The notes under the pieces were generated by a model that saw nothing but the letters and a program-made list of their open reading frames with translations, ran no database searches and had not been told where the DNA came from. A stretch of DNA of 64,000 bases from Trypanosoma brucei (taxonomy: Eukaryota), in the NCBI GenBank assembly GCA_000002445.1, contig CM000207.1, positions 2,080,001-2,144,000 on the forward strand, in the 5' to 3' direction. Of the stretch, positions 49,558 to 64,000 are shown piece after piece (the stretch's first letter is position 1; every line of letters starts with the position of its first letter). Made by a program: the position numbers and the translations under genes.

Positions 49558-51066
49558 ACTTTACTAAAGAACAGTAGGTTATCACAAACTGACTGCAATG
49601 GGTGATTTCTGAGGAGGGAGGAAAGGAAAAAAAAATGCTAAAAAATGATTCCTCAACGTAACATGAGAAGGTAGAGACAGTACCGCAGCGACAAAAGGAA
49701 CAAAAAAACAATAATGACAGCGATAACGACGATAATAACGATAATAACGATGCCAACGACTGGACCAGCAGACACCCGCGTTAGTAAAAGGAGAAACATA
49801 TCACATGTATCCCAGCCAATGCGATATCATAACACTCTTACAAACGAAAAGGAGTAGTACAGAAGAGATATACAAAAGACTTAAGGATGTAAAAACGGGG
49901 AGAGGGGCGGGTTCAGAACGACGCCACATTAAGTGGTACAAATGGCGAGTTCAAGTGCAATTTATGAGTGAAGAGAAGCACCCACGACCGCGGCAGTTGG
50001 CACAAAAGCAGCCGTTAGATACGGAGGAAAACCGCCACGGCGTCGGTCACCACCTGAATTCTCTCATGCCCTTTTCCTTCCTTGCGTCCCTCAAATCCTC
50101 CCTAAATCAACGCCTCTCGGAATCCTCGATGGTTCATGTGATGAATGCGGTTCAAGCGAGATAACTTACAACAGTGCTTATATCACTGACAATAATCCGA
50201 CTATCCCATAACACCTTTCACGCATAATGTCACACATGTCACTAGGTGGCACGCACTGAAAAGAGCCCGTCAAGAAAAGACGATCCCTAATCCCTCACGT
50301 AATTCCTTTTCGCCCAGTCCCTGAAAGAGAAGAGGCGGAGAAAAAAAAAAGAAAAAAGAAAATAAATGCGCCATAACACTAACTAACTTGCGAGTGAGTG
50401 AGTGAGTGGACAAGAAAGATACAACATAGCCATATCAATCACTTAACAATCCCAACAAAATTATAAACACACACACACACACACCTTCACGTGCACGTGG
50501 GCAAATGCATTACCACCTATCCTTTCCTTCCCATCATAACAGTCATCATCCCCCTCCACCATTCCGTCCACTTCTCAACGCCTTTTTCCCCTTTTTCCCC
50601 ATTTTATTCTTTTTTTTTTGCATTTTTCCTGCTTTTTTTTTTTTTGCGTTCTCGCACCAGTAGGTGAGCACCGACAAAGAGAAGAAAGAGAGTAATATAT
50701 GTATATATGTAATTTCCCGCACACAAAAAACAAAGAAGCAAAAAGAAAATGGATGCAAGACGTTAGAAATCCCTACACCACTAACTTGGATTTTTGCATC
50801 TTTTCCGTTGACTACTGACATTGTCTCCACTCAAAGAATAAGAGGGGTCACATCTCTATTCTCATCTCTCTTCTAAGTACACATCAAAAAAGGTACAAAA
50901 AGAAAAAGCAAAGACAAACACACACACACACACACACAAAGGAAAATAATTTAAAAAAAACAAAAATTAAAAAATCAAACGAAGCCGTAATCACCCTTCT
51001 TTTGATACAAACAATCAGGCGTCAAACAACATTTGTTTCTCTCTTCCCACACGAGCCAGATGTATA

Positions 51067-51090
51067 AATATATATATATATATATATATA
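51067..51090. repeat. (TA)12 microsatellite within the 4.5 kb ORF-free gap
   Basis: atatatatatatatatatatatat read directly. Nearby (GT)n at 51117-51129, (CA)n at 50468-50485 and 50921-50940, (TAG)5 at 51243-51258. Confidence 0.9.
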
Positions 51091-54076
51091 CATCTATACG
51101 TCCGTACGCGTATGTATGTGTGTGTGTGTTTGTGTGTTCGCATGCTTCACCTTCATCTCCCCCACAATTATGTACTTCGATCTCTCATTATAAACAAAAA
51201 AGACAAACAAAAACAAAATAGACCGAACGGACAGACAGACATGTAGTAGTAGTAGTAGGAAAAACGAAAAAAAAAACAAAAGGAAGAAAATAAGAAAAGG
51301 GCCAGACAGAGAGATAACAGCGGTGACAGCAAGACACCCACGAATAAAGCACGCACACATACACACACACACATATTTGATTATTTAAAGAAAAAAAAAC
51401 ATCAAGTGAGCCAATTTTTATTCCCCCTTCTGCTCTCCTCAGAAGCGCAGCACGAAAAAAAAAAAGGAATAAAAGTTGGCTACACATTCATCGGTACTTT
51501 TTTTTTCTTTTTCTCATTATCCCGCTTAGTTCAACTGTCAGGGCTCACGTCACCACTCACTCATATTGAAAGAAAGATAAGGGAAGGTTAGAGTATGAAA
51601 GCAAAAGGAGGAAAGGAAAGGAAAGGAAGGGAAAGAAAAGGAGGCGAGAGATCGAAAAATTAAAAAGAAAACGAAAGGAAAGGTAAAGTGAAGGTGAAGG
51701 TGAAAGGTAAAGAAGTAGTGACGAACAAAAAAAATTCAAAAATCAAGTGAGGGAGTCTATGCATGTGTACGACAAAAAGAAGTTGTGTTGACAAACTACA
51801 CACACAAATGCAGTCATTTACACAAGCATGTGTACGTGCACATTCACCTCTCGAAAGACCCTCCACGCGCCCAGACACCGAACAGCGTGTAACTTGTGAA
51901 TAAATATAGAAAGAAAAAAAGAACCAAAAAAAAAAAAGCTTGCATCTTGTGGAAGCTGACTACCATTTTGTTATAAGCGTTTGCATGGAGGGAGGAGGAA
52001 GGAAAAAGATTTGAGGCTAAGGATTAAATAACATCACACATGTCCAAATAGAAGTGGTGCCGTAACCTCTTTCCACTCAATTCCTTTGGTACGCGAACAC
52101 ATACGTATATATAATATATATATAATATATATAAATATATATATTGCCTTCGCCACCCTGAAACAACAACAAATGAATCACACCGCGCATAAAACCCACC
52201 TTATCCTCCTCCTTCCCTTCCCTTCCCTTCCCTCCCTCCGACTCCTCACCTATTTATTTCTTAATTATTATCATCTCTCCTTCTCCAATATTACACAAAC
52301 GCCGCAAAGTAAAGTAACGCATTTTGGGTCCCTTCATCCTCCTCCTCCTTCTCCTTCTTTTCCAACCTAAACTCATCCCTACCTCCCGTTAATCACTCTT
52401 CGCTTGTTTCCTTTCTTTTTTTTTAAAAAAAAAAAGAGAGAAAAGAAAACAAATGTGTTCGACTCTTTGATTACCTGGATTCTTTCTTCAGATTTTGGCT
52501 GAGGTTGGTGTCTTCATTTTTCCTTTTTCTTTTTTTCTTTTTTTTTTTCGTTGTAAAAAGTAACCTCCACACACGCAGACAACTTTCCCCTTTTCTCGCT
52601 CAACACTAAATGTAATAAATTTCATCCTCCCCCCCCCCTCTTCTTCTTCCATAAGTCGTTGCGTACAAACAAAACAAAACGGAAGGAGGAAAGGAGGGGA
52701 AAAAAAAACAAACAAATCGTGCAGCCCTCACCACCCTCGCAAACTTATTCAGACGAAACGACTACTTGTGGACAAAATTATGAAAAAAATCTCAACCTCA
52801 CAATAACAAAGAAACACACAAAAAAAAAATGTGAGAAAGGGAGAAGATAGAGAAAGGGAGAAAGAGAAGTGACTAAACACTTCAAAACATACGTACAAGC
52901 GCATAAGCATATACACATATCCTCCTCCTTCCTTTCAGCTTCCTTTTACCGCTCTCTCACTTACCTTTCTCCATCAACTCCCCTTTGAGCATTTCCAACG
53001 CGTCCCCTACAACTCAAATTTCAAGTATTGACCCCTCCCTCAAAGAACAGAAGAAAAAAAAAAAAGAAGAACAAAAAAAAAAAATGGAGTCACTCTATCT
53101 GCCTCGCCTCACAATAAATCGGTTCACACCAGACCTCACTTTCATCCCTTATCATTCACTATGCGATAAAGCTTTAAAGTCGCACCTAATACAGAACTGT
53201 CTCCTTTTGCTTCATTGTTGCTTTTCAATTCCCCATACCCGCTCTTTCCTACTCAACCTTCCTTCAACACCCCCATCTCCCCAGTCCGAACCGTCTACAT
53301 TTACCTATCGATTTATTTTTTAAGGGTCCCTCATTCTTTTTTTTTTCTTTCCTCCTCCTCCTCCTCCTCTCCCCTTCTCCATTCACCATTCCATCCCCAT
53401 CACATACACGCATACGCATACGCATACGTTTCTTTTTCTTTTTCCTTTTTGTTTCCCCCCCCCCCAACACACACACACACGCACCAACTTCCCATATTCA
53501 CGTATCCATCTCCTTTTCCTCTTCCTCGTGTGTAAAAGTTATATTTCCCCTCACGTTATGCAATGGTGCGTGTGAGAGGGAAAGCAAGGGGGAAAGGGAG
53601 AAAAAGAAAGAAAAAAAAAAAAGAAAACCACCGCAGAGAGTCACGTGCCGCTGCGCGCGGTTTGGTCCGGTGTGGTTGCCGGAAATTCCTCGCAACCTTC
53701 TGAACCCAGATTTGCTTTCGCCCCTCTTTTTTTTTCTTTTCTTTTATCTTATCTTATTTTTGCGCTGTGCTGTGCGTGCTTTGTTTTGTTTTGTTTTTTT
53801 TCCTTTTCCCCACTTCCACACCCTTCCCTTCACACCCCCCTCCCTTCTCTCTCTCTTTCTCACACACACACAAACACACGCGAACACACGCACACAAACA
53901 CGCGCAACCCCACGCATCATTTTAAGCTTCTGCGTCTTCATTTACTCCCCCCCCCCTAACATTAATTATATATCGCACCCTCACTTTTATACCCGCCCAC
54001 ATTCGCAAGTCACGTGTTCCCCCCCCCCTGATCTCAAGCACCCCCGTCGTCTTTTATCGTTCTTTTCTTCACGATT

Positions 54077-54994
54077 TCATGAAGTGGATTTATTGTCAAG
54101 ACGGACATTCATTGCCCTGTTCGCCATCTCAATTCCATCGAACTCCTCTATGGCAACACGGGTTTCCTCCTCTGTCTTCATTACAACAATACCCATACCA
54201 CGGCTCTTTCCATTACGTCCCATGATAATCTCAGCGCGTTCCACTTCGCCAACCTGCTGGAACGTTTCTCGCAGCGCTACACTGGTGCAGTCAAACGGAA
54301 GATTTGATACAAACAATTTGCGACCGACTTCGTTCATTTGTTTGCTGCGTGGCTTTGGCACTACCTCATTCACATCGTTGAAGACACCCGAATTCCCATC
54401 ATCGGGTAAGGCATATCCACCGCGATTCACGTAACCACCACCACGACCGAAGTTTCCCGCGCTATTATTGTATGATGTCATATTAGCGTTCGCATTCCCG
54501 AATCCCCGCATTCGCTGCTGATGCTGCTGCTGCTGCTGTTGTTGTTGCTGTTGTTGTTGTTGCTGATGTGGCGGATGATGTTGTTGTTGATGATGCTGCG
54601 GTTGTTGCAACTGCCCCTGCCGAACGTACGGAGGCATCATTTCCCGCTGCACCAACTGTGGCCGTGGCCCGTCATCAAAAAGACGGACGATAAGTCGTCT
54701 CCCTTCGAAGTCGGTTTCATCAAACATGCGAATGGCTTGCAGGGCGTCTTCCCTAGTGGCCATCGTCACCAACGCGGAGCCCTTCGGACGGCCCGTCTTG
54801 TCGGCGATAAGATCCGTGTAACGAACCTTTCCAGCACTTCTGAAGTGATCCTTCACATGCTGCCATGGGGTTTGAAAGGGGATGTTGCCCACAAAAAGAA
54901 TGTTGCCGTGGTTCTGGCGACGGTCACCATCTTCAGGATCACGCTGGGGACATGATGCAGATGAATGCTCGTCGAACATATTTCCTCCTTGCAT
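54077..54994 (-). CDS. Two-RRM RNA-binding protein with poly-Gln linker (DRBD-type; possibly the DRBD2/Gbp2-like protein of trypanosomes)
   Basis: RRM1 ILFVGNIPFQTPWQHVKDHFRSAGKVRYTDLIADKTGRPKGSALVTMATREDALQAIRMFDETDFEGRRLIVR. RRM2 KLFVSNLPFDCTSVALRETFQQVGEVERAEIIMGRNGKSRGMGIVVMKTEEETRVAIEEFDGIEMANRAMNVRL. Q-tract QQPQHHQQQHHPPHQQQQQQQQQQQQQQHQQ. Start placed at ATG 54994 (MQGGNMFDEHSS); ATG 54979 is an alternative. The ORF-track start 55081 adds a K-rich low-complexity extension. DRBD2 naming is from memory and unverified. Confidence 0.75.
   Translation of the reverse strand: MQGGNMFDEHSSASCPQRDPEDGDRRQNHGNILFVGNIPFQTPWQHVKDHFRSAGKVRYTDLIADKTGRPKGSALVTMATREDALQAIRMFDETDFEGRRLIVRLFDDGPRPQLVQREMMPPYVRQGQLQQPQHHQQQHHPPHQQQQQQQQQQQQQQHQQRMRGFGNANANMTSYNNSAGNFGRGGGYVNRGGYALPDDGNSGVFNDVNEVVPKPRSKQMNEVGRKLFVSNLPFDCTSVALRETFQQVGEVERAEIIMGRNGKSRGMGIVVMKTEEETRVAIEEFDGIEMANRAMNVRLDNKSTS
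54515..54610 (-). repeat. CAG/CAA (Gln-coding) trinucleotide repeat inside the RRM protein CDS
   Basis: Plus strand ctgctgatgctgctgctgctgctgttgttgttgctgttgttgttgttgctg... read directly. Confidence 0.85.
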
Positions 54995-56038
54995 CAGGTA
55001 CACCCTTTTTGCCTTGATAATTTTTTTTGGGGGGGTATTTGTTTTTATTTCTTCTTGACTTTTTTTTTTTATTATTCCCACTTTTACCTTCCCTTCCCCT
55101 TATTACTTATGTGTTTTACCCCCTTTTTTTTTTTTCGGCGCTCTTATTATTGTTAATACTCGCCTTTTTTTTGTTTTTTCCCCTTTATGGTCCTTTCCCT
55201 TCCCTGTAGATCCTTCTTTTTTTTTTTTCTTACGTTCTTTCCACTCTCCTTTAATCTGTTGTACTCCGCCCGTGTGTATGTGAAATGAATGAGATATTGT
55301 CGAAAACGCACACGTTGCAGCTCCTCCAGGAAATGGAGCGAAAAAGAAAGATATATATATATATATATATATGAGTTAACCTCGAAGGGTCTACACGCAG
55401 AGTGAACGAAAAGAAAATTATAATTCTATTAACAATAGCAACGGCGAGAACCGTTATTACTAACAAGTTCTACGTAGAAACAACGAGTCTTTTTTTAAAA
55501 AAAAAAACAGCCTGAAACATACAGAGTGACTGCGACCCCAAACGCTTCAAGTTATATGAAGTAATAAAGGAAATAAACAAGGGAGCATATTGTGAACCAA
55601 AATGGACGACTTATTCACGCATACAAATATATATTTATATATTTACGTACATTTGTATGAGACAACTTATTATGTTTGACAACCGAGTGTATGGGAAAGA
55701 TCACGCGATTTGTGGTTCCCGCCTGCAGAGCCTTGGAAGATAATAGTACCACGACAGTTTTTCATATTCCTCGTCAAGCGCGCTGAGCTATATAGATCTA
55801 GATATATATGAGTTGCACCCGAATTCAACTAACGGGACACATAAAAACAGCTAGAATCCAAAGGGGGAAAAAAAATTGAAAAAAATTGAAAAAAAAAGAG
55901 GTTTAGAGGAAAGCAAACAGAGACGTGAAGAAAGAAAATCAACTGGGCCATACTAAAGCGGTGAAACCCACGATCTCGAACAGAAAGATGGAAAACAAAG
56001 AGAAGAAACAAAACCCTCCACAGACTCGATGAGCGAAA

Positions 56039-56533
56039 CTAGTTTGGGACCTTTAGTTTACCTTCCTGAACCTTCTCCTGAATCGCTCGCGGGTGTTCGC
56101 CATCAATTGTGCAACCGATGGAAACGGCAGTGCCAAGTACCTCCATCACCACAGATTTCATGCTGGCACCCATAGAGTTCGGCGCCGACTCCTTCGCAAT
56201 CTTCAGAATCTCAGAGAAGGCGATGTTACCGTCATGCTTAATATTCTTCACCTTCTTGCGATCACGCGGTGGCTCCTTCAGCGCACGGATCAGCCTTGAG
56301 GCGACGGATGGCGTGACGATGACGGTAGCCACACGGTTCTTCACGCGCAGCTGACACGTAACCTTGAGACCCTTCCAGTCCTTCGTGGACTTGGCGATAT
56401 CCTCACCGATTTTTTTCGCATTCAGGCCGAGCGGACCGACTTTGGGGGCGAGTGACGCCGTTGCAGGCACTTCACCACCCACAGCACGGACGACGACTGT
56501 GATCTCCTGATTGGGGTCAAACTTGGGGGGCAT
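56039..56533 (-). CDS. RPL12: 60S ribosomal protein L12 (uL11)
   Basis: [115 protein letters not shown]... is near-colinear with human RPL12 ([37 protein letters not shown]...). ATG at 56533 verified (atg ccc ccc aag ttt). The ORF-track start 56698 adds 55 spurious residues. Confidence 0.85.
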   Translation of the reverse strand: [164 protein letters not shown]

Positions 56534-56917
56534 CTTCCAGGTTTTGTTTTCCCTTCCAGAAATAAAAGGATACGTTAAAAGAAGAAGAGAGGATCGAGGG
56601 GAGAGAGAAAGATGCAAATCACAGCGTGTCCTGCGCGAGAGAACAAGAGGGCATAAGTTCGAAGCAGTGAACCACAGCAAACAACGAAAAGTCAACATGC
56701 ATGTGTGAAAGTGTGGAATGAATACAAGAGTAAATCAATTTCCTCGGTGGGTGGTCGCTGCAAAACCTTCGCGCCCAGGTTAGTGACGCCCAAGAGCATT
56801 ATATCTGCGAGCTCGCGCCAAGAGGTGGAAAGGGAAAGCAAAACTTTACGAAGTATCCGCTACCACGTGCCGCCGACGGTACCAGACGCATACCCCATAT
56901 AATTCCCCCCTGTGCTG

Positions 56918-59197
56918 CTATGGACCGTCAGCAAGGTGTTGCTCCCACAAGATACCATCTGCTCCTACTGTGTAGTAACGCAGGTTATGCTCCCAAACGT
57001 CATTCTTAGCATAATATTCCGAATTGTGTCGTTGTTCAGTGGTGCGGTTAACGGTGTAACACGCCCGCGGAGCTGGGCCGTAGGTAAAAGGAATCCGGTC
57101 CGGGAATGGCCAGACACATGGTGGAAGATACTCCCGCCGGCAGACGGATTGTCCAGCTGGTTCAATAAAGGACTCTACGGCATCCTGAACTGACGGTTCC
57201 GTCGGATAACAGGAACTGACGGAGCACAACGAAACCTCAGAGTGGCCTTTCGCCTTCCTCAGTAAGAAGGTGCATCCTTCAGGGTTTCCAGATTTCTCGT
57301 CCATCCCCTCTTGGTGTTGCCTCTCACGTTGATGGTACTGACGGGTCGCAGTTGCGACCAACTTCGAAAGGATGTCACGGAGGCAGCTCCAAGCGCTTTG
57401 GACCTCAGTGTCGTTAGAATATTCGTGAAGAACTTGATTCGCAAGCGTCGCGGACGAAAATTGCTCAATCCCAACAACCGCACTCGAATATGCATTGACT
57501 CGATACACATAGAGAGCCGCGGTTGGGTTACAATGAAGCAAGACCCACATGTATATTACTTCCTTTTTGCTAAAGTTTTCATATAGAAGGGTCCGCTCAT
57601 CGTCGGGCGCTGTGTTGTAACCTTTGCAGTTGTACTCCATCTTCACCAAGCGGAAAACTGGTTTCGGTTCTTTAAGGTCGAACACGCAATTCGTCATACA
57701 TAAAAATGCAAGATCAGCACCAAAGGAGACTTCGGAGTAGCACTTGCTTTCCCCACCATCAGGGCCACTGCACCGGCCTCTGGTCGGCAAACGCAACTCG
57801 GCGTCCACCAAACGCTTCATGGCCATTGCACTAATATTACGCCGCGACTCGCAGCTTGGTGGAAGAGGTTTCTCAATGCTGATATCGAGGCACTGCGCTG
57901 ATGGGGACCATGTGCAACTCACCGGTATGCAGAATTCCCCGCGAAACGACGACAAATGCGCTGTGGCCAATTTGAACAGCGCCGACTTGCAAACCCTGAG
58001 GGTGAAGAAGGTCCCCACAATGTCTTTGCAAGGGAGCGCTGGAGGCCGTGCCTCTGCCACCTCCTGTTGCTGCTGACCCTGAGACGATACGTCCTTTTCC
58101 ACAACTTTAGCACCCGCTACGTTTGAGGTGTGTAGTGCAGGCTCCCGCTCGTTAAGCCATTGCACTCCTAAAGGCAGCGTGGGCGGAACGGCGGCCGACG
58201 GAAGGACGCGAGTGTGACCTTTTGACTGACGCTCTTCAATGGTTTCAGCGACGCGATGCGCACAGAGATGACGGGTACGCTCACACAGAGTCGCCGTTGG
58301 CTTCACCCCGGTTGATGCTGCAATGCTTTTGCGGAGATCACAAATAACCTCGGAGAAATTGACCCCACCGCCCCCACCACCACAGGACGACCCACCAAGG
58401 AGCCCACGCAACAACTGCGACTCCAATCGGTAACGCAGCCACTGCTTGGCATATTGCTCCACGTACTCGTCAATGTAATTGTGGTTCCAACAAGCCCGGT
58501 GAGACTGCTGTGGCATCTCGTCGCTTCTGGTACGTTTGTTATACCCTGTTTCACACTTACAAGCCTCACATGCAATCATTTCTTCTTTTAACTTGTGGCG
58601 GTAAGCTGCCTGCTCCCGCTGAACTAAATCAATGACAGTACTAAGATCCGGATAGTCTTCCGTTGGGTTTGGAATAATGCCTTCCTCCAGGTATCTTTTC
58701 ACCCAAGAGTAATAGTGTCGATGTTGTCCCCGTGTGAGGCATGAAGTGCACATGGAGAGCCGCTTTGACGAATTGGATTTCATGATGGCGAGCGCAGCGT
58801 TGTAGTCGACCCGCCTACGCGTGTCATCTTCCCTAGCATCTTCCTCACCAAACGCTTCCTCCAGATACGATTCATTTACCCCCTTTAACTCTTCACGAAT
58901 CTCCGCACACCGGGGGTGCCGCCGCAGCGCCGTTAAAAGTGCCTCCGCATCTTCAGCGGGTAGCTCTAATGTGGGCGAGGCATTCAACAACATTTCCTTG
59001 CCATGGTAAACCCTTGCATTACCGGTACCGTCGCTGCTCTTACTACACAACCGGATAACTTCAGGAACAATAACATCCTTCTCGCTTGGGAAGCCATCTA
59101 CCGGAGCTCGCATAGGTACAGAGAACTGAGGAGGAAGAAATGCGCCATGCTCCTGCTGCCGTTTCTCCTCCAGAGCAGGCGACGGAAGCGATGTCAT
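56918..59197 (-). CDS. Hypothetical protein (759 aa)
   Basis: Uninterrupted 2.3 kb ORF in the transcription-unit orientation. Cys/His-containing stretch (CTSCLTRGQHRHYY...CEACKCETGY...HRACWNHNY), possibly zinc-binding. No family recognised. Confidence 0.55.
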   Translation of the reverse strand: MTSLPSPALEEKRQQEHGAFLPPQFSVPMRAPVDGFPSEKDVIVPEVIRLCSKSSDGTGNARVYHGKEMLLNASPTLELPAEDAEALLTALRRHPRCAEIREELKGVNESYLEEAFGEEDAREDDTRRRVDYNAALAIMKSNSSKRLSMCTSCLTRGQHRHYYSWVKRYLEEGIIPNPTEDYPDLSTVIDLVQREQAAYRHKLKEEMIACEACKCETGYNKRTRSDEMPQQSHRACWNHNYIDEYVEQYAKQWLRYRLESQLLRGLLGGSSCGGGGGGVNFSEVICDLRKSIAASTGVKPTATLCERTRHLCAHRVAETIEERQSKGHTRVLPSAAVPPTLPLGVQWLNEREPALHTSNVAGAKVVEKDVSSQGQQQQEVAEARPPALPCKDIVGTFFTLRVCKSALFKLATAHLSSFRGEFCIPVSCTWSPSAQCLDISIEKPLPPSCESRRNISAMAMKRLVDAELRLPTRGRCSGPDGGESKCYSEVSFGADLAFLCMTNCVFDLKEPKPVFRLVKMEYNCKGYNTAPDDERTLLYENFSKKEVIYMWVLLHCNPTAALYVYRVNAYSSAVVGIEQFSSATLANQVLHEYSNDTEVQSAWSCLRDILSKLVATATRQYHQRERQHQEGMDEKSGNPEGCTFLLRKAKGHSEVSLCSVSSCYPTEPSVQDAVESFIEPAGQSVCRREYLPPCVWPFPDRIPFTYGPAPRACYTVNRTTEQRHNSEYYAKNDVWEHNLRYYTVGADGILWEQHLADGP

Positions 59198-59560: not shown

Positions 59561-60841
59561 TCACAAAAGTTTTACTGCAATAAGTCGCCTGGGTAGGTCT
59601 ACCTTTTTGGTGCGTAACTTTGGAACTCGTGGAGTGTCCTTTTGTAATTCTATTTGCATATTCGCCCACGCGCAAAATTCCTCCGCCGCTTTCATGTCCT
59701 TTGCGTATGCAGAGAGGCAACAGTTACTGCTCTTCTCACCATACTCGCCATCGCAAAGGTAATATCCACCTTGCACCAACCGCTCCTCCTCAACAGCCAT
59801 CCGCAGCACCACCTGCGCTCCATCTGTCCATGTTTTACCAATGAGCAGCGAGGGATAGTAAATTAAATAGTCCAGTACGAAAGTAGGGAAGAGATCACGG
59901 TACAAATGCGTTGTAATGATACCGGGGTGACAACAGGCAACGGAGACCCGGGGTAGCGGTTGTGACGGTTGAGCTCCCTCGGTGGTGGGAAGGTAAAGGG
60001 AAGAAACACGCTGTGCAAGGATATTTGTCCACCAAATCATGCACAGTTTGGAAAGCCCATAATAACCCACAAAGTTCCATAGAGTAAAATCCCGTACCCC
60101 GGCATCCTCACTGAGCGGTGCCCTGCTGTGGAGCTCTTTCAACATCTCCAAAGGACCCTGTTGTGGGGCGACGCCCAAAAACGTGTGGCAGCTGGATGCA
60201 ATATTAACAATCCGCGACGACGCCCCAGTCCGCAGCGCTGTCTCATCCAGTAGCGGAAGCAACAACTCTGTGAGAAGCATCGGCCCAACCACGTTAGTCG
60301 CAATCATCTCCTCCATCCCTGTACCATCACAGCGGTGAAGACGCCGGCGCAACACCCCAGCCGCATTCACCAAAAGTGACAGAGATAATTGATCTTTCTG
60401 TCCAGTCACAACCTCGGCAAAATCTCGCACGCTGCTCAGATCCGACAGGTCCAATACACCAACAACGATTGCACAGCCAGCAGGATTCCGCACCATAATT
60501 TTCTTCCGTGCCTCAAGCAGCCGTTCTTCACTGCGCCCCGCCATGACCACACGCCAACCATGTTCAACAAGTTGCTGCGTAACGGCAAAACCAATGCCGG
60601 AAGATGCCCCCGTGACGAGGGCTACACGAGAGTTTTTACCCGTATTAGCAGGCCACCGACAACTGCGGCCCTTCGCCTTTCTGCGGCAAATCAGACAACT
60701 GCTAATCATGAGAAGTGTAGTTGAGACGCCCGACATATTGACCCGCCAAAACCAACCAAAGAGGTGGGTGAACGCCCAAATTAAAAGAAACTGACACATT
60801 GTTATTGCTGCCTGCATCTCAGATGACTCGACATGCAACAT
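59561..60841 (-). CDS. Short-chain dehydrogenase/reductase (RDH/WWOX-like SDR) with hydrophobic N-terminal anchor
   Basis: Cofactor motif VALVTGASSGIGFAVTQQL (TGxxxGxG). C-terminal GAQVVLRMAVEE...GGYYLCDGE resembles retinol-dehydrogenase-type SDR tails. Start uncertain (candidates at 60841, 60817 and 60739). Confidence 0.75.
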   Translation of the reverse strand: MLHVESSEMQAAITMCQFLLIWAFTHLFGWFWRVNMSGVSTTLLMISSCLICRRKAKGRSCRWPANTGKNSRVALVTGASSGIGFAVTQQLVEHGWRVVMAGRSEERLLEARKKIMVRNPAGCAIVVGVLDLSDLSSVRDFAEVVTGQKDQLSLSLLVNAAGVLRRRLHRCDGTGMEEMIATNVVGPMLLTELLLPLLDETALRTGASSRIVNIASSCHTFLGVAPQQGPLEMLKELHSRAPLSEDAGVRDFTLWNFVGYYGLSKLCMIWWTNILAQRVSSLYLPTTEGAQPSQPLPRVSVACCHPGIITTHLYRDLFPTFVLDYLIYYPSLLIGKTWTDGAQVVLRMAVEEERLVQGGYYLCDGEYGEKSSNCCLSAYAKDMKAAEEFCAWANMQIELQKDTPRVPKLRTKKVDLPRRLIAVKLL

Positions 60842-61235
60842 CGCGCCGCCAGATTACACTACTTGGACAATATGTGTATCTTTCCACTATCAGTGACTGA
60901 ACGTGCCGACGGCGGTGGCAAATTCTATCCGCTTAATGTACCAAATGCAAATTTTGTATATATGCGTTCACTCATTTGGATGTGTGGAGGGAGTGAAATG
61001 GCAATATGCTAACAAGTACATTAAGCGAATAAACTTCCCTACCACCGGAACTAGTAGCCGCATCACCAGCACTCATAGATTTGTGTCACCACAGGTTTAT
61101 GCGTGCGCAAAATAAATAAATAACTATTTACTGTGAGATGATGTTAATGTATTAAGAGGGCGAGGAAAGCGCAGCCCCTCGAAACACTACGCGTACCGAC
61201 CGCAGGCGCTGCCAAACACTTACCCACGCTATGCG

Positions 61236-62810
61236 TTACACTGGGCTTCTTAACTCGTCCTGCCACTTCTGCGACCCTGAGAAACTGTGCCCCAACTGGT
61301 CCTCGCGCTTCATCTGCGCGTAATCACCCTCGTCCCAAACCTCATCACCTTCCGCATAAGTCAGCCGAACGGTTGTATCTGTCAAGTGTTCAACGTAATG
61401 ATTCACTAAAAATCCTTCGGAGTACCGCTTCGCCGCCAACCGGAGTTGCTCCAACAAATCCTCCCCACCAACGTCACCTTCATCGTTATAATCCCCTGTA
61501 GCCACGCATCCCTCCTCGTTACCCATTGCGGGTTCCTCCGACGCATCAAGTGAATCGCTAAGTGACTCAGCGGTAAACAAATCTTCAGTGGACTCATTTC
61601 TTCCGCCCTCCGATTGTCTCCCCGCCTCTCTCGTCTTCATATCCGCCTCACTGCCCAGATCCGCCCGGGCGCGGTTATCCATCAGTAGTATTTCGCCGCA
61701 ATGAACAAAAGGGTCGCCCTCAGCTCCCGTTACTGGAAGCTCAATCAGTGGGTCACCTTCCAACACCACCCGAATGGGATTCACCGCGTGGACGTACCGC
61801 GCAAGAGACTTTTGGATACATTTGGGGGCACCGAGTGTCACGCAGTTCTTCACGTCAAAGCCGCGGGCGTGCAAAAGTAACGCGAGGCAGAAAGCAACTG
61901 CCCCACCAACACCGTGACCGACAAGGACGGTGGACCGATACGCGTGCAGTGGGGTCTCCACCATTAACGCATCACACAGCCGCAGGGCCACACTGAGGTA
62001 CTCCGCATGGAACACCGTACCGCGCAGCTCCTCCGCCTCCGCGATTTCCACACGCTCCACGTCACGAGACCAGTCGTATGTCTCACACCGTACGTAAACA
62101 ATTTGCTTATTGAATGTTTCATCAACTTCCACAACCACATTCTCCTTCCCATGCGACATGTGATGAGCTGTGACACCGCTACGAGTTCCCACGATTGCCT
62201 CTGTGACTTGCCATGACGTCAGCCTACCGGGCTCCGCAACAGCGTCCCTGCCGCCGCCGGTTTCTTGCAGTCTGTGAAGAATAAGTAAACGCTCACCGTA
62301 CGGAATGAGCGCATGCTGCATGATGCGATTCTGCCTGTCGGAGGTCGCCTCCTCCTCCACCTCGTCACGATCCAACTTCTTCTCCTCAAACTGGCAGTAG
62401 CGAACATAATTTCGTTCCACCGTCTGCTGGTAGTGGACATTCCCCACTCCGGCAGACAAAACCTGAAGCATAGAAGTAAGGGCCGTATTGCCTGGTGCAC
62501 GCAAAAGTAACTCAGCTAACCCATGCACCTGCTGTAGTTCCTTCGCAATGAACTTCCCGTACTGCGCAGTCAAAACCCGCTGCTTTTGGGACTTCCTTCT
62601 TCCACCACGCGCATCCCCGCTCCCATCGTGGAGCAGATGCCTATACTGCTGTCGGTTCCGCTCCGCCCTCTCAAGGAAGCGACGGCCCACATATTGCCTG
62701 AGTCCTTCAGTTTGGTAGAGTGGGCAGTCACGCGTAACTTGTTCCGCAACTTTGATTAAACGGCGATACGCGACTCGGGTGTCGATGCGGATTGCGGATG
62801 GCACACTCAT
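61236..62810 (-). CDS. Lipase class 3 (fungal-lipase-like alpha/beta hydrolase) homologue with Ser-to-Gly substitution at the nucleophile (GHGVGG), predicted non-catalytic
   Basis: STVLVGHGVGGAVAFCLALLL aligns to the lipase_3 nucleophile elbow GHSLGGALA. Downstream CVTLGAPKCIQKSLARY (cf. VxTFGxPRVGN) and NPIRVVLEGDPLIELP (cf. RVVNxxDIVPRLPP). Start placed at ATG 62810 (MSVPSAIRIDT, verified). The ORF track extends to 63002 through low-complexity sequence. Confidence 0.55.
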   Translation of the reverse strand: MSVPSAIRIDTRVAYRRLIKVAEQVTRDCPLYQTEGLRQYVGRRFLERAERNRQQYRHLLHDGSGDARGGRRKSQKQRVLTAQYGKFIAKELQQVHGLAELLLRAPGNTALTSMLQVLSAGVGNVHYQQTVERNYVRYCQFEEKKLDRDEVEEEATSDRQNRIMQHALIPYGERLLILHRLQETGGGRDAVAEPGRLTSWQVTEAIVGTRSGVTAHHMSHGKENVVVEVDETFNKQIVYVRCETYDWSRDVERVEIAEAEELRGTVFHAEYLSVALRLCDALMVETPLHAYRSTVLVGHGVGGAVAFCLALLLHARGFDVKNCVTLGAPKCIQKSLARYVHAVNPIRVVLEGDPLIELPVTGAEGDPFVHCGEILLMDNRARADLGSEADMKTREAGRQSEGGRNESTEDLFTAESLSDSLDASEEPAMGNEEGCVATGDYNDEGDVGGEDLLEQLRLAAKRYSEGFLVNHYVEHLTDTTVRLTYAEGDEVWDEGDYAQMKREDQLGHSFSGSQKWQDELRSPV

Positions 62811-63547
62811 CGTTGCAGGGTAACGGCAGCCCCTCTTTTGTCTGTTATTTCCTTTCCTCCCTTTTCCCCTTTCTTTATTTTTTGATCCCCCCCCCCTTGA
62901 TTCCCAACTGGAAGGAGAGAAAGGGTTTCGTAACCCACACCTAATGCTGTGTTTGAACGGTCTGTGAGAAAAAGAGGAACGACTTTTGCACGATGAGTGC
63001 AATCACGTCGTGGCACCACTTCCCTTTGCAACAAAGCATAGAAACGAGTTATCCGTTCCAATATTTAAAAAAAACAAAAAGGAAGCGCATATGGGAGCTT
63101 GAAAAATACCTCAGGCGGTAGAGCAGTCCGGAAACCACAAAGCAAAAATAATAATAATAACAATAATATATAATAACAATAACAATAACAGAGTATCAAA
63201 CGCGAAAAGAAAGGATTCCGTAATAGGCATTAAGCCTGCAATTTGAAGTGGTTGCTGCGAAGTAAAAACAATCGATAAAGAAAGGAACTGGTGGGTCGTG
63301 TAGGGGACCGGAAGGGGAGGGAAAAGCAGACAAATGGAAATGTTAAGCACCTTTTTCTTGAGGGTGAGACCTACTTTACATTCCATGGTAAATGATAGGG
63401 GCATACAAGAGAACCTTTTGCCGCCAGAAAAAAAAAAAAAAGTGGCACGGCAGACCCTGATCACCACTTTGCCACGTAAAACAAACCAAATGAAACAATC
63501 AAGGGTACGTTACACGTAAACCCACTTCACTTTACTCCCACAGTTGT

Positions 63548-63564
63548 AACCCTAACCCTAACCC
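63548..63564. repeat. Interstitial telomere-like hexamer block, (CCCTAA) about 2.8 units on the plus strand / (TTAGGG) on the minus strand
   Basis: aaccctaaccctaaccc read directly at 63548-63564, between the lipase-like gene and the downstream SDR gene. Confidence 0.85.
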
Positions 63565-63664
63565 ACACCCTCTAAGGGAATACATTTATATATTTATAAA
63601 TATATGTTCTACCGCATTGATGAAGTGAGAAGTCGCCTCTTCACGACGGGTTCGCCTCCAATCC

Positions 63665-64000
63665 CTACGCGGAAAGGTCTTCCTTTGCGTTTAACGGAAG
63701 GCCAACAATGTCTTTGCCCCATTCCACAATGAGGTCCCCCTCCTTCACATCCCAAGCGTAGCGCAAGAGCCATGGATGTGTTTGGTTCATGCACTCAGCG
63801 AAGTAGGGGCTGACAAAGGCATTCGGATCTCCACCACGTGGTTCAACGGGCCGAAGTTCCTCCGCATCACACATGGCACAGTGCAGCGTTGTTTGGGCTC
63901 CATCTTCAGGGGACTTTAGGAAGAGCAAACACACGAGCTGGTACGCACAGGCCACAAAGCCACTAAAAACGAGGTCTCGCGAGAAGTTTGTGCCCACACA
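63665..64000 (-). CDS. Short-chain dehydrogenase/reductase, C-terminal part only (5' end beyond window end); paralogue of 59561..60841
   Basis: Stop TAG at 63665-63667. Tail GAQTTLHCAMCDAEELRPV...YFAECMNQTHPWLLRYAWDVKEGDLIVEW matches RDH-type SDR C-termini ([33 protein letters not shown]) and the C-terminus of the upstream SDR. The Met at 63997 is internal. Confidence 0.6.
   Translation of the reverse strand, partial: CVGTNFSRDLVFSGFVACAYQLVCLLFLKSPEDGAQTTLHCAMCDAEELRPVEPRGGDPNAFVSPYFAECMNQTHPWLLRYAWDVKEGDLIVEWGKDIVGLPLNAKEDLSA

What the first reader, a model, noticed from the sequence alone, without database searches (positions are those of the whole stretch)
59561..64000. SDR / lipase-3-like pseudo-enzyme / SDR gene cluster
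Two paralogous RDH-type short-chain dehydrogenases flank a lipase_3-family protein. Both SDRs share the C-terminal GAQxxLxxA...YY/YF signature, and the complete one also has TGASSGIG. The flanked protein has its GHSLGG nucleophile elbow mutated to GHGVGG. Loss of the catalytic Ser predicts a non-hydrolytic alpha/beta-hydrolase (pseudo-lipase), perhaps lipid-binding or regulatory. Its sandwiching between duplicated lipid/retinoid-type oxidoreductases hints at a functionally related lipid-handling module that arose by local duplication.
Basis: partly seen in the sequence, partly recalled or inferred. Interest (0 to 1): 0.6.

Follow-up and report, generated by a model that had tools for sequence, protein, structure and literature searches.

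The report
Known mitoribosome assembly factor between dehydrogenases
The "dead lipase" is mt-LAF18, a Trypanosoma brucei protein already seen by cryo-EM helping to build the mitochondrial ribosome, and the two dehydrogenase genes beside it are ancient duplicates with no shown functional link to it.

Summary
On the minus strand lie an SDR gene (59561-60841), a Lipase_3-homologous gene (61236-62810) with GHGVGG at the nucleophile elbow, and the C-terminal end of a second SDR (63665-64000).

The middle protein is Tb927.9.14050, known as mt-LAF18, and matches PDB 6YXX, 6YXY and 7AOI.

The lipase-like domain is a pseudo-enzyme:
- Ser is replaced by Gly or Ala in all 26 aligned orthologues.
- The oxyanion motif RG[ST] is replaced by RCE or CCT.
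- The catalytic His is probably replaced by Phe or Tyr.
- Only the Asp is kept.

This dead domain is the best-conserved part of the protein, yet no structure resolves it. Diplonemid homologues keep the Ser.

The two SDRs are real but ancient paralogues. They are about 30% identical and share a specific N-terminal two-helix membrane anchor. Gene order differs in Leishmania, and the SDRs are absent from the available flanks in three deeper relatives. Nothing supports a lipid-handling module.

Verdict: an already known protein with some new annotation detail. Low interest.

The parts
59561..60841 (-). SDR1: a complete 426-aa classical short-chain dehydrogenase/reductase with an N-terminal two-helix membrane anchor
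   Evidence: ORF. Pfam adh_short 80.8 bits. Orthologues: T. cruzi 54% and L. major 41% identity. 99% identical to a T. b. gambiense 'short-chain dehydrogenase, putative'.
60590..60613 (-). SDR1 cofactor-binding motif TGASSGIG (residues 77-84)
   Evidence: Motif positions and coordinates.
60047..60061 (-). SDR1 catalytic Y261-G-L-S-K265 (YxxxK)
   Evidence: Together with N183 and the IASSCH serine region this indicates a catalytically competent SDR.
61236..62810 (-). mt-LAF18 (Tb927.9.14050) coding sequence, 524 aa plus stop
   Evidence: 1173.8 bits, residues 1-524 against 1-524 of PDB 6YXX_ES 'Lipase (Class 3) | mt-LAF18', 4 differences. 100% identical to the TREU927 protein P0002. Identity and role from PMC7957421.
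62319..62810 (-). N-terminal LYR-type helical region (residues 1-164), which binds acyl-4'-phosphopantetheine of mt-ACP2 and contacts mt-EngA
   Evidence: Cryo-EM description in PMC7957421. Predicted helices 5-28, 34-63, 70-102, 109-120 and 125-147. Foldseek top hits are 6yxx_ES and 7aoi_XR. 7AOI_XR matches residues 3-163.
62763..62768 (-). Y15-R16 of the (A/L)YR motif; R44-F45 lie downstream
   Evidence: Y15, R16 and R44 are invariant, and F45 is F in 24 and Y in 2 of 26 orthologues.
61668..62228 (-). Lipase_3-like alpha/beta-hydrolase core (residues 195-381), catalytically dead and not resolved in any structure
   Evidence: Pfam Lipase_3 34.9 bits. hhalign against canonical small Lipase_3 proteins: probability 99.7%, E 9e-26. 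Foldseek hits fungal lipases at E 1e-7 to 1e-6. Most conserved region of the protein.
61902..61919 (-). Degenerate nucleophile elbow G298-H-G300-V-G-G303; G300 (codon GGT, 61911-61913) replaces the catalytic Ser
   Evidence: for the alignment to GHSLGG; 15 Gly and 11 Ala among 26 orthologues.
61752..61754 (-). D353, the retained acid of the former triad (GDP motif)
   Evidence: Invariant in 26 of 26. Aligned to the D of 'NDDPVPKLP' in 5XK2 and to the invariant D of the canonical relatives.
61467..61667 (-). Acidic, poorly conserved, predicted-disordered insertion (residues 382-448) that splits the lipase-like domain
   Evidence: pLDDT about 30. 13-20% identity to the trypanosomatid orthologues compared and no column at 90% or more.
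61239..61466 (-). C-terminal segment (residues 449-524) holding F467 (codon 61410-61412) at the presumed His position, Y472, and the conserved LTYAEGDEVWDEGDY motif
   Evidence: The motif register against canonical 'H-x4-Y ... V-x-Y-x-E' was read from the sequences.
63665..64000 (-). SDR2: the last 111 codons plus stop of a second, paralogous SDR; the rest lies beyond the window
   Evidence: for the translation. 64% identity to the T. cruzi 442-aa adh_short protein and 53% to L. major SDRa. Syntenic position in T. cruzi.

Best explanation
The region is a stretch of a Trypanosoma brucei chromosome 9 polycistronic unit carrying three independent genes.

The middle gene encodes mt-LAF18, a trans-acting assembly factor of the mitoribosomal large subunit.

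Shown by published cryo-EM:
- Its N-terminal three-helix LYR-type bundle grips the acylated 4'-phosphopantetheine arm of mt-ACP2.
- The ACP2:LAF18 module binds the L1 stalk and holds it in an inward, non-functional position.
- Two further helices brace the GTPase mt-EngA and connect to mt-LAF14 at the central protuberance.
- The module leaves before the subunit matures.

Shown here:
- The C-terminal two-thirds is a Lipase_3-derived alpha/beta-hydrolase domain that has lost the oxyanion RG[ST] motif and the Ser nucleophile.
- It has probably also lost the His base. It keeps only the Asp.
- It is nevertheless the most conserved part of the protein.
- It is absent from the solved models.

Inferred: the domain is a non-catalytic, flexibly tethered binding or scaffold module, not an enzyme.

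The two flanking genes encode membrane-anchored, apparently catalytically competent RDH/DHRS/WWOX-type SDRs. They descend from an ancient duplication, probably tandem, in a kinetoplastid ancestor. Their closeness to LAF18 is retained synteny, not a functional cluster.
For: Identity:
- 6YXX_ES and 7AOI_XR match at 1173.8 and 338.4 bits.
- The TREU927 protein is 100% identical.

Role:
- PMC7957421 names Tb927.9.14050 as mt-LAF18 and describes the mt-ACP2 binding, the L1-stalk lock and the EngA contact.
- PMC13631411 reports LAF18 dissociating with mt-ACP during maturation in both T. brucei and L. tarentolae.

Pseudo-enzyme status:
- Pfam Lipase_3 hit.
- hhalign against canonical Lipase_3 proteins at 99.7%, pairing GHgVGG with GHSLGG and RCE with RGT.
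- G or A at position 300 and an invariant D353.
- No His at the H-x4-Y position in about 56 family members.

Unresolved domain: only 152 and 137 residues are modelled in 6YXX and 7AOI.

Conservation: the lipase core is 82% (Tb-Tc) and 60% (Tb-Lm) identical, against 57% and 38% for the N-terminus.

SDRs:
- Orthology and paralogy scores.
- The shared N-terminal anchor gives an hhalign score of 28.0 (E 5.8e-5). 150 column shuffles reached at most 17.4, and reversed controls gave 7.7-8.9.
- Catalytic motifs are intact.

Synteny:
- T. cruzi: SDR2-LAF18-SDR1.
- L. major: LAF18-SDR2-ADA-SDR1.
- Another trypanosomatid: SDR2-x-x-LAF18-Ank-SDR1.
- No SDR in the flanks of three deeper homologues.
Against: - The role of the lipase-like domain is inferred, not shown. 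No structure, mutant or binding datum for it was found.
- The His-to-Phe assignment rests on a weak local alignment (E 0.013, probability 3.4%) plus motif register. I could not inspect model coordinates.
- Persistence of both SDRs within a few kb of LAF18 across trypanosomatids is compatible with, though not evidence for, some shared regulation.
- I could not read Jaskolowski et al. 2020, which may say more about the protein.
Confidence: 0.85

Rival explanations
1. One reading: SDR, pseudo-lipase and SDR form a functionally linked lipid or retinoid-handling module created by local duplication. The dead lipase would act as a lipid-binding or regulatory partner of the two oxidoreductases.
For: - The three genes stay within about 10 kb of each other in T. 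brucei, T. cruzi, L. major and another trypanosomatid.
- The SDRs are true paralogues.
- LAF18 does contact an acyl chain, on mt-ACP2.
Against: - LAF18 has an experimentally established place in mitoribosome assembly.
- Neither SDR matches any chain of a solved structure beyond generic SDR similarity.
- Gene order is rearranged and other genes are interleaved: adenosine deaminase, an ankyrin protein and two unannotated genes.
- The available flanks of three deeper LAF18 homologues contain no SDR.
- Trypanosomatid gene order is broadly syntenic without functional clustering (established knowledge).
Confidence: 0.05
2. The conserved dead lipase domain is a ligand sensor or membrane tether. It would bind an acyl chain, a lipid or the inner membrane, and so couple mitochondrial fatty-acid synthesis, ACP acylation state or membrane proximity to large-subunit maturation.
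For: - The domain is more conserved than the resolved LYR part.
- It is fused to an acyl-ACP-binding module in both kinetoplastids and diplonemids.
- It keeps the alpha/beta-hydrolase core and the Asp.
- It is flexible or unresolved in the cryo-EM models.
Against: - There is no direct evidence.
- In the structure the acyl-4'-PP sits in the LYR bundle, not in the lipase domain.
- Conservation could equally reflect a protein-protein interface.
Confidence: 0.15
3. The domain is still a hydrolase that uses a non-canonical nucleophile or base.
For: D353, H299, H370 and several other polar residues are conserved.
Against: - Gly or Ala at the nucleophile position cannot act as a nucleophile.
- The oxyanion motif is lost.
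- No conserved His lies at the base position.
- H299 and H370 are also conserved in canonical lipases, where they are not catalytic (invariants H107 and H180).
Confidence: 0.03

Closest known systems
mt-LAF18 (Tb927.9.14050; PDB 6YXX/6YXY chain ES, 7AOI chain XR)
   Same: It is this protein: 520 of 524 residues are identical to the PDB sequence, and it is 100% identical to the TREU927 entry.
   Different: Nothing in the sequence. The published description covers only the N-terminal 164 residues or so. The lipase-like domain's triad status, conservation and diplonemid homologues are not discussed in the papers I could read.
LYR-motif protein and mt-ACP modules (MALSU1:L0R8F8:mt-ACP on pre-mtLSU; NDUFB9 or NDUFA6 with ACP in complex I)
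   Same: A three-helix bundle with conserved Y-R and a downstream R-F holds the acylated 4'-phosphopantetheine of ACP (PMC7957421).
   Different: - The first motif residue is Ala, Val, Thr or Ser rather than Leu.
- There is no Pfam Complex1_LYR hit at E up to 1.
- It is fused to a large dead lipase domain.
- It acts at the L1 stalk and central protuberance rather than at uL14m.
Class-3 (fungal-type) lipases, Pfam PF01764 (e.g. Thermomyces, Rhizomucor and Penicillium lipases; feruloyl esterase A)
   Same: Homologous alpha/beta-hydrolase core, elbow geometry motif G-H-x-x-G-G-A, and a retained Asp in a D-P/V-(L/V)-x-x-P motif.
   Different: - Ser replaced by Gly or Ala.
- RG[ST] replaced by RCE or CCT.
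- His replaced by Phe or Tyr (probable).
- A 67-residue acidic insertion.
- An N-terminal LYR fusion.
EDS1 / PAD4 / SAG101 plant immune regulators (lipase-like pseudo-enzymes)
   Same: A Lipase_3-like domain used as a non-catalytic interaction module. They appear among the Foldseek hits (4nfu_B, 9jbn_B, 7xdd_A).
   Different: Unrelated partner domain (EP domain rather than LYR), unrelated biology, and only distant structural similarity (TM about 0.2).
RDH11-14 / DHRS12 / DHRS13 / WWOX-type classical SDRs
   Same: Both SDRs have their best non-orthologous matches to proteins named this way, and share the GAQxxL C-terminal signature.
   Different: They have a kinetoplastid-specific N-terminal two-helix anchor with 'SSE/KSE..A' and '[CS]R..A[RK]G' motifs. 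They also have a longer Ser-to-Tyr spacing. The substrate is unknown.

Membership tests
mt-LAF18 (identity with the solved protein) | Near-identical full-length sequence to PDB 6YXX_ES and 7AOI_XR | tested here: met
   1173.8 bits, residues 1-524 against 1-524, 4 substitutions. 7AOI_XR covers residues 3-163.
Lipase_3 (Pfam PF01764), homology | HMM match above the gathering threshold and a class-3 lipase fold | tested here: met
   34.9 bits against a cutoff of 22 (partial, profile positions 56-137 of 140); hhalign 99.7%, E 9e-26. Foldseek hits 5ch8, 1tia, 4tgl and 6a0w at E 1e-7 to 4e-6, using a model whose core has pLDDT 80-95.
Lipase_3, active enzyme | Nucleophile Ser in G-x-S-x-G | tested here: not met
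   G300. 15 Gly and 11 Ala among 26 orthologues. Aligned to the Ser of GHSLGG.
Lipase_3, active enzyme | Catalytic Asp | tested here: met
   D353 is invariant. It aligns with the invariant D of canonical relatives and with 5XK2.
Lipase_3, active enzyme | Catalytic His (H-x4-Y near the C-terminus in the closest canonical relatives) | tested here: inconclusive
   The alignment puts F467 (F in 21, Y in 4) opposite the His. The local hhalign is weak (E 0.013). The motif register is consistent across about 56 homologues.
Lipase_3, active enzyme | Oxyanion-hole motif R-G-[ST] after strand beta4 | tested here: not met
   One search aligns canonical 'IRGT' with 'VRCE'. Leishmania has 'CCT'. The Gly is invariant in the canonical set (G52).
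LYR-motif (LYRM) proteins | L-Y-R/K tripeptide with a downstream conserved Phe | tested here: met
   A14-Y15-R16 with Y and R invariant. R44 is invariant and F45 is F in 24 and Y in 2. The first residue is A, V, T or S rather than L.
LYR-motif (LYRM) proteins | Match to Pfam Complex1_LYR models | tested here: not met
   No such family was listed at E up to 1.
LYR-motif (LYRM) proteins | Three-helix bundle binding the acyl-4'-phosphopantetheine of mt-ACP | not testable with these tools
   Shown experimentally in PMC7957421. Here only the predicted helices 5-28, 34-63 and 70-102 and the Foldseek match to the solved chains are available.
Classical SDR (adh_short), SDR1 | Pfam match, TGxxxGxG, NNAG-type motif and N-S-Y-K catalytic residues | tested here: met
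   (80.8 bits). TGASSGIG, NAAG, TNVVGP, IASSCH and YGLSK.
Classical SDR (adh_short), SDR2 fragment | Belongs to a full-length SDR | tested here: met
   No Pfam hit on the 111-aa fragment alone. It is 64% identical to the C-terminus of the syntenic T. cruzi 442-aa protein, which hits adh_short and has intact motifs.
Functional gene cluster (SDR / LAF18 / SDR) | Conserved adjacency and order across lineages | tested here: not met
   The order differs in L. major, and other genes are interleaved in L. major and in another trypanosomatid. No SDR lies in the available flanks of three deeper homologues.
Functional gene cluster (SDR / LAF18 / SDR) | Shared localisation, interaction or phenotype | not tested
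   No literature was found for the neighbouring gene IDs. There was no access to TrypTag or TriTrypDB.

The most novel reading that the evidence does not exclude
The strongly conserved but catalytically dead and structurally unresolved lipase-like domain of mt-LAF18 may be a ligand-binding or membrane-binding sensor. It is fused to an acyl-ACP-binding LYR module in both kinetoplastids and diplonemids. It could link mitochondrial acyl-ACP or lipid status, or inner-membrane proximity, to release of the L1-stalk lock during large-subunit maturation. On this reading it descends from an ancestral ACP-tethered hydrolase whose Ser survives in diplonemids.
Probability: 0.15. Interest if true: 0.5.

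Novelty: already known. Interest (0 to 1): 0.2.

Why it matters
The main point is negative. A plausible-looking "lipid module" dissolves once the middle gene is recognised as a published mitoribosome assembly factor, in a genome where gene neighbourhood carries little functional information.

Two small residues of interest remain.

First, the part of mt-LAF18 that nobody has seen or explained is its best-conserved part. Conservation of a dead lipase domain argues for a real but unknown role in mitoribosome biogenesis, and in a parasite-specific pathway.

Second, the LYR plus lipase fusion predates the kinetoplastid-diplonemid split. The loss of catalytic residues was stepwise: the His is already absent in diplonemids, and the Ser was lost later in kinetoplastids. 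This is a tidy example of an enzyme being recruited as ribosome-assembly scaffolding.

Tried and rejected
- Exact look-up of the window's LAF18 protein in the assembly index, to read beyond base 64000, found nothing. I used the syntenic T. cruzi locus instead.
- The SDR2 fragment alone gave no Pfam hit and no PDB hit. It gave only one database homologue.
- Direct BLASTP of the SDR2 fragment against SDR1 was not significant (E 0.22). Paralogy needed the full-length orthologues and the N-terminal profile comparison.
- Comparing BLAST scores in the catalytic domain does not place SDR1 and SDR2 closer to each other than to plant, oomycete or bacterial SDRs. A recent duplication is therefore rejected.
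- hhalign restricted to the C-terminal segments gave the expected register but a weak score.
- Literature searches for the neighbouring gene IDs found nothing.
- Jaskolowski et al. 2020 is not held.
- PMC13631411 has no supplementary text held.
- The diplonemid mitoribosome paper does not mention a LAF18 homologue or a lipase.
- I considered whether either SDR could be the mitochondrial FAS-II ketoacyl-ACP reductase. I rejected this on family grounds: they are RDH/DHRS-type with a membrane anchor, not FabG-type. That step is inference and general knowledge.

Full report
**What is in the sequence.**
Positions 59561-64000 carry three minus-strand ORFs.

- ORF 59561-60841 encodes a 426-aa protein. 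It matches Pfam adh_short at 80.8 bits, and also matches adh_short_C2 and KR.
- ORF 61236-63002 starts at a TTG. From its first ATG (62810) it gives a 524-aa protein that matches Pfam Lipase_3 at 34.9 bits, against a gathering score of 22. The match covers only the second half of the profile.
- The last 111 codons of a third gene (63665-64000) run off the window. They have no Pfam hit of their own.

- TGASSGIG at SDR1 residues 77-84.
- GHGVGG at residues 298-303 of the middle protein.
- GAQxxL in both SDRs.

**Identity of the middle gene.**
A search of all PDB sequences returns chain ES of 6YXX and 6YXY, described as "Lipase (Class 3) | mt-LAF18". The match is 1173.8 bits over residues 1-524, with four substitutions. 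Chain XR of 7AOI matches residues 3-163. The TREU927 protein in the public collection is 100% identical, so the window is Trypanosoma brucei.

Tobiasson et al. (EMBO J 2021, PMC7957421) identified Tb927.9.14050 as the LYR-motif partner of a second mitochondrial acyl-carrier protein (mt-ACP2) on a native pre-large-subunit particle. They report that:
- Three helices hold the acylated 4'-phosphopantetheine arm.
- Two more helices form a bundle with an extension of the GTPase mt-EngA and connect to mt-LAF14 at the central protuberance.
- Release of the module is proposed to accompany L1 and central-protuberance maturation.

A 2026 complexome study reports LAF18 leaving with mt-ACP during maturation in both T. 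brucei and Leishmania tarentolae (PMC13631411).

In the alignment of 26 orthologues, Y15, R16 and R44 are invariant and F45 is nearly so. The first position of the "LYR" motif is A, V, T or S. Pfam's LYR models do not detect it.

**The lipase-like domain is a pseudo-enzyme.**
Profile alignment to PDB lipases places G300 opposite the Ser of GHSLGG in Thermomyces and Aspergillus lipases. It places D353 opposite the Asp of "NDDPVPKLP".

An exhaustive profile search of 1.84 billion representative proteins found 49 relatives at E up to 1e-10, plus many small canonical Lipase_3 proteins. A profile of 24 of those canonical proteins has these invariant features: the Gly of an RGT motif, GHS..G, a D, H.G, and a C-terminal H-x4-Y. 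That profile aligns with LAF18 residues 214-386 at 99.7% probability and E 9e-26. The alignment gives:
- RGT paired with RCE (CCT in Leishmania).
- GHSLGG paired with GHGVGG.
- D..P paired with GDPL.

Position 300 is Gly in 15 and Ala in 11 of 26 orthologues, and D353 is invariant.

The catalytic His lies beyond a 67-residue acidic, disordered insertion (pLDDT about 30), so it falls outside that alignment. I aligned the C-terminal segments separately and read the motif register in the sequences. The canonical pattern is H-x-[MIL]-x-x-Y ... [VI]-x-Y-x-E. The LAF18 pattern is F-L-V-N-H-Y ... L-T-Y-A-E. This puts F467 (F in 21, Y in 4) opposite the His. The alignment statistics are weak (E 0.013), so I rate this step as probable rather than shown. 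H471, which sits beside the conserved Tyr, is not conserved: it is D, R, E or A in 8 of 25 sequences.

Of the four catalytic features of a class-3 lipase, only the Asp survives.

**The Gly is ancestral to trypanosomatids, not an error.**
The independently sequenced PDB strain has it, and so do all orthologues. Among about 30 more distant homologues, the kinetoplastid-like ones have G, A, R or K. There is a single exception with Ser, P0161.

Homologues from the diplonemids Diplonema ambulator, Namystynia karyoxenos, Lacrimia lanifica and Hemistasia carry an LYR-type N-terminus fused to the lipase domain. Six of seven have G-[HFY]-S-x-G-G. They too lack a His at the base position.

The fusion therefore predates the kinetoplastid-diplonemid split. 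Since even the Ser-bearing diplonemid proteins lack the His, loss of the base seems to have come before loss of the nucleophile.

**What is not known.**
Foldseek of an AlphaFold model (mean pLDDT 72.9, core 80-95) shows that only 152 residues (6YXX) and 137 residues (7AOI) of LAF18 are modelled. All of them are N-terminal. The rest of the model matches fungal lipases and feruloyl esterase at E 1e-7 to 1e-6, and more weakly the plant lipase-like pseudo-enzymes EDS1, PAD4 and SAG101. No other PDB entry contains the protein.

Yet the lipase-like core is the best-conserved region:

| Measure | Lipase-like core (195-381) | N-terminus (1-164) |
|---|---|---|
| Identity, T. brucei vs T. cruzi | 82% | 57% |
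| Identity, T. brucei vs L. major | 60% | 38% |
| Columns at least 90% conserved | 35% | 17% |

The papers I could read do not discuss this domain: "lipase" occurs zero times. My best inference is a flexibly tethered, non-catalytic binding module. Whether it binds protein, RNA, lipid or membrane is open.

**The two SDRs.**
The window's fragment is 64% identical to the C-terminus of a 442-aa T. cruzi adh_short protein, encoded immediately upstream of the T. cruzi LAF18 gene. It is 53% identical to an L. major protein. SDR1 is 54% identical to its T. cruzi orthologue and 41% identical to its L. major orthologue.

SDR1 and SDR2 families are 27-31% identical over about 320 residues, with E values from 1e-13 to 1e-25. 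In the catalytic domain each scores as well or better against SDRs of plants, oomycetes and bacteria, some named DHRS12, DHRS13, RDH12 or WWOX by their sources. That domain alone does not show a specific relationship, and a recent duplication is excluded.

Both families do carry a 70-100-residue N-terminal extension with two hydrophobic helices and shared polar motifs ("SSE/KSE..A" and "[CS]R..A[RK]G"). Profile-profile alignment of the extensions alone scores 28.0 (E 5.8e-5). 150 column shuffles gave a mean of 9.3 and a maximum of 17.4. Reversed-sequence controls gave 7.7 and 8.9.

The outgroup SDRs are about 300 residues long and lack this extension. I conclude that SDR1 and SDR2 are genuine paralogues from a duplication older than the Trypanosoma-Leishmania split.

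SDR1 has all the motifs of an active classical SDR, and the T. cruzi SDR2 orthologue does too. Their substrate is unknown.

**Is it a module?**
Gene order in different lineages:

| Lineage | Order |
|---|---|
| T. cruzi (as in the window) | SDR2-LAF18-SDR1, then a NARG2_C-like gene |
| L. major | LAF18-SDR2-adenosine deaminase-SDR1 |
| Another trypanosomatid (Logan assembly) | SDR2-two genes-LAF18-ankyrin protein-SDR1 |
| Three deeper, environmental LAF18 homologues | no SDR in the 2-8 kb of flank available |

The sandwich is therefore a Trypanosoma arrangement within a loosely conserved neighbourhood. Trypanosomatid genomes are highly syntenic and transcribed polycistronically without operon-like clustering (established knowledge). 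Such closeness is expected for old tandem duplicates and their neighbours.

Neither SDR matches any mitoribosome or other kinetoplastid chain in the PDB. No literature on the neighbouring gene IDs was found. I give the module hypothesis about 5%.

**Verdict.**
The finding is real and correctly described at the motif level. The additions made here are:
- The stepwise decay of the catalytic apparatus.
- The diplonemid homologues that retain the Ser.
- The stronger conservation of the unresolved dead domain.
- The shared N-terminal anchor of the two SDRs.

Interest is low (0.2). The one open question is what the conserved pseudo-lipase domain does.

Noticed in passing
window 63547..63564 (- strand): An interstitial telomere-type repeat, GGGTTAGGGTTAGGGTTA (three TTAGGG units), lies in the intergenic region or 3' UTR between the SDR2 stop codon and the LAF18 start. 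It occurs once in the window, with 0 expected in 100 shuffles.
   Followed up: partly
window 56918..59197 (- strand): A 759-aa ORF directly downstream of SDR1 has a sub-threshold Pfam NARG2_C match (26.2 bits against a cutoff of 30.8). The syntenic T. cruzi gene is 745 aa, and in one assembly it is split into two gene calls, one with a weak NARG2_C hit. It may be a divergent ICE2/NARG2-like protein.
   Followed up: no
window 56039..56698 (- strand), and L001 16589..17737: A 60S ribosomal protein L12 (uL11) gene; the real start is probably the internal MPPKFD... (Ribosomal_L11_N and L11 domains). In T. cruzi a Metallophos phosphoesterase gene lies between the NARG2_C-like gene and RPL12. In the window only about 220 bp separate them, so that gene is missing at this position in T. 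brucei. A Metallophos gene also lies about 0.8 kb downstream of a deep LAF18 homologue (L008).
   Followed up: no
window about 50000..54000: A low-GC stretch (0.37-0.41) with strong negative GC skew (down to -0.47) and no ORF of 120 aa or more between about 49557 and 53670. It is probably a long UTR or intergenic region upstream of the RRM-protein gene at 54077..55081 (RRM_1 116 bits).
   Followed up: no
P0161 (Logan contig, 6475 bp): One close kinetoplastid-type LAF18 homologue (576 bits) has GHSVGG, that is, a Ser at the elbow, while still having Phe at the presumed His position. It is either a reversion at a site that tolerates G, A or S, or a lineage that never lost the Ser. The organism is unknown.
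   Followed up: partly
window 61239..61310 (LAF18 C-terminus) and alignment A1: The motif L-T-Y-A-E-G-D-E-V-W-D-E-G-D-Y (residues about 483-497) is almost invariant across trypanosomatids, yet the model predicts it with low confidence. Its first part corresponds to the '[VI]-x-Y-x-E' strand of canonical relatives. The acidic W-D-E-G tail has no counterpart there.
   Followed up: no
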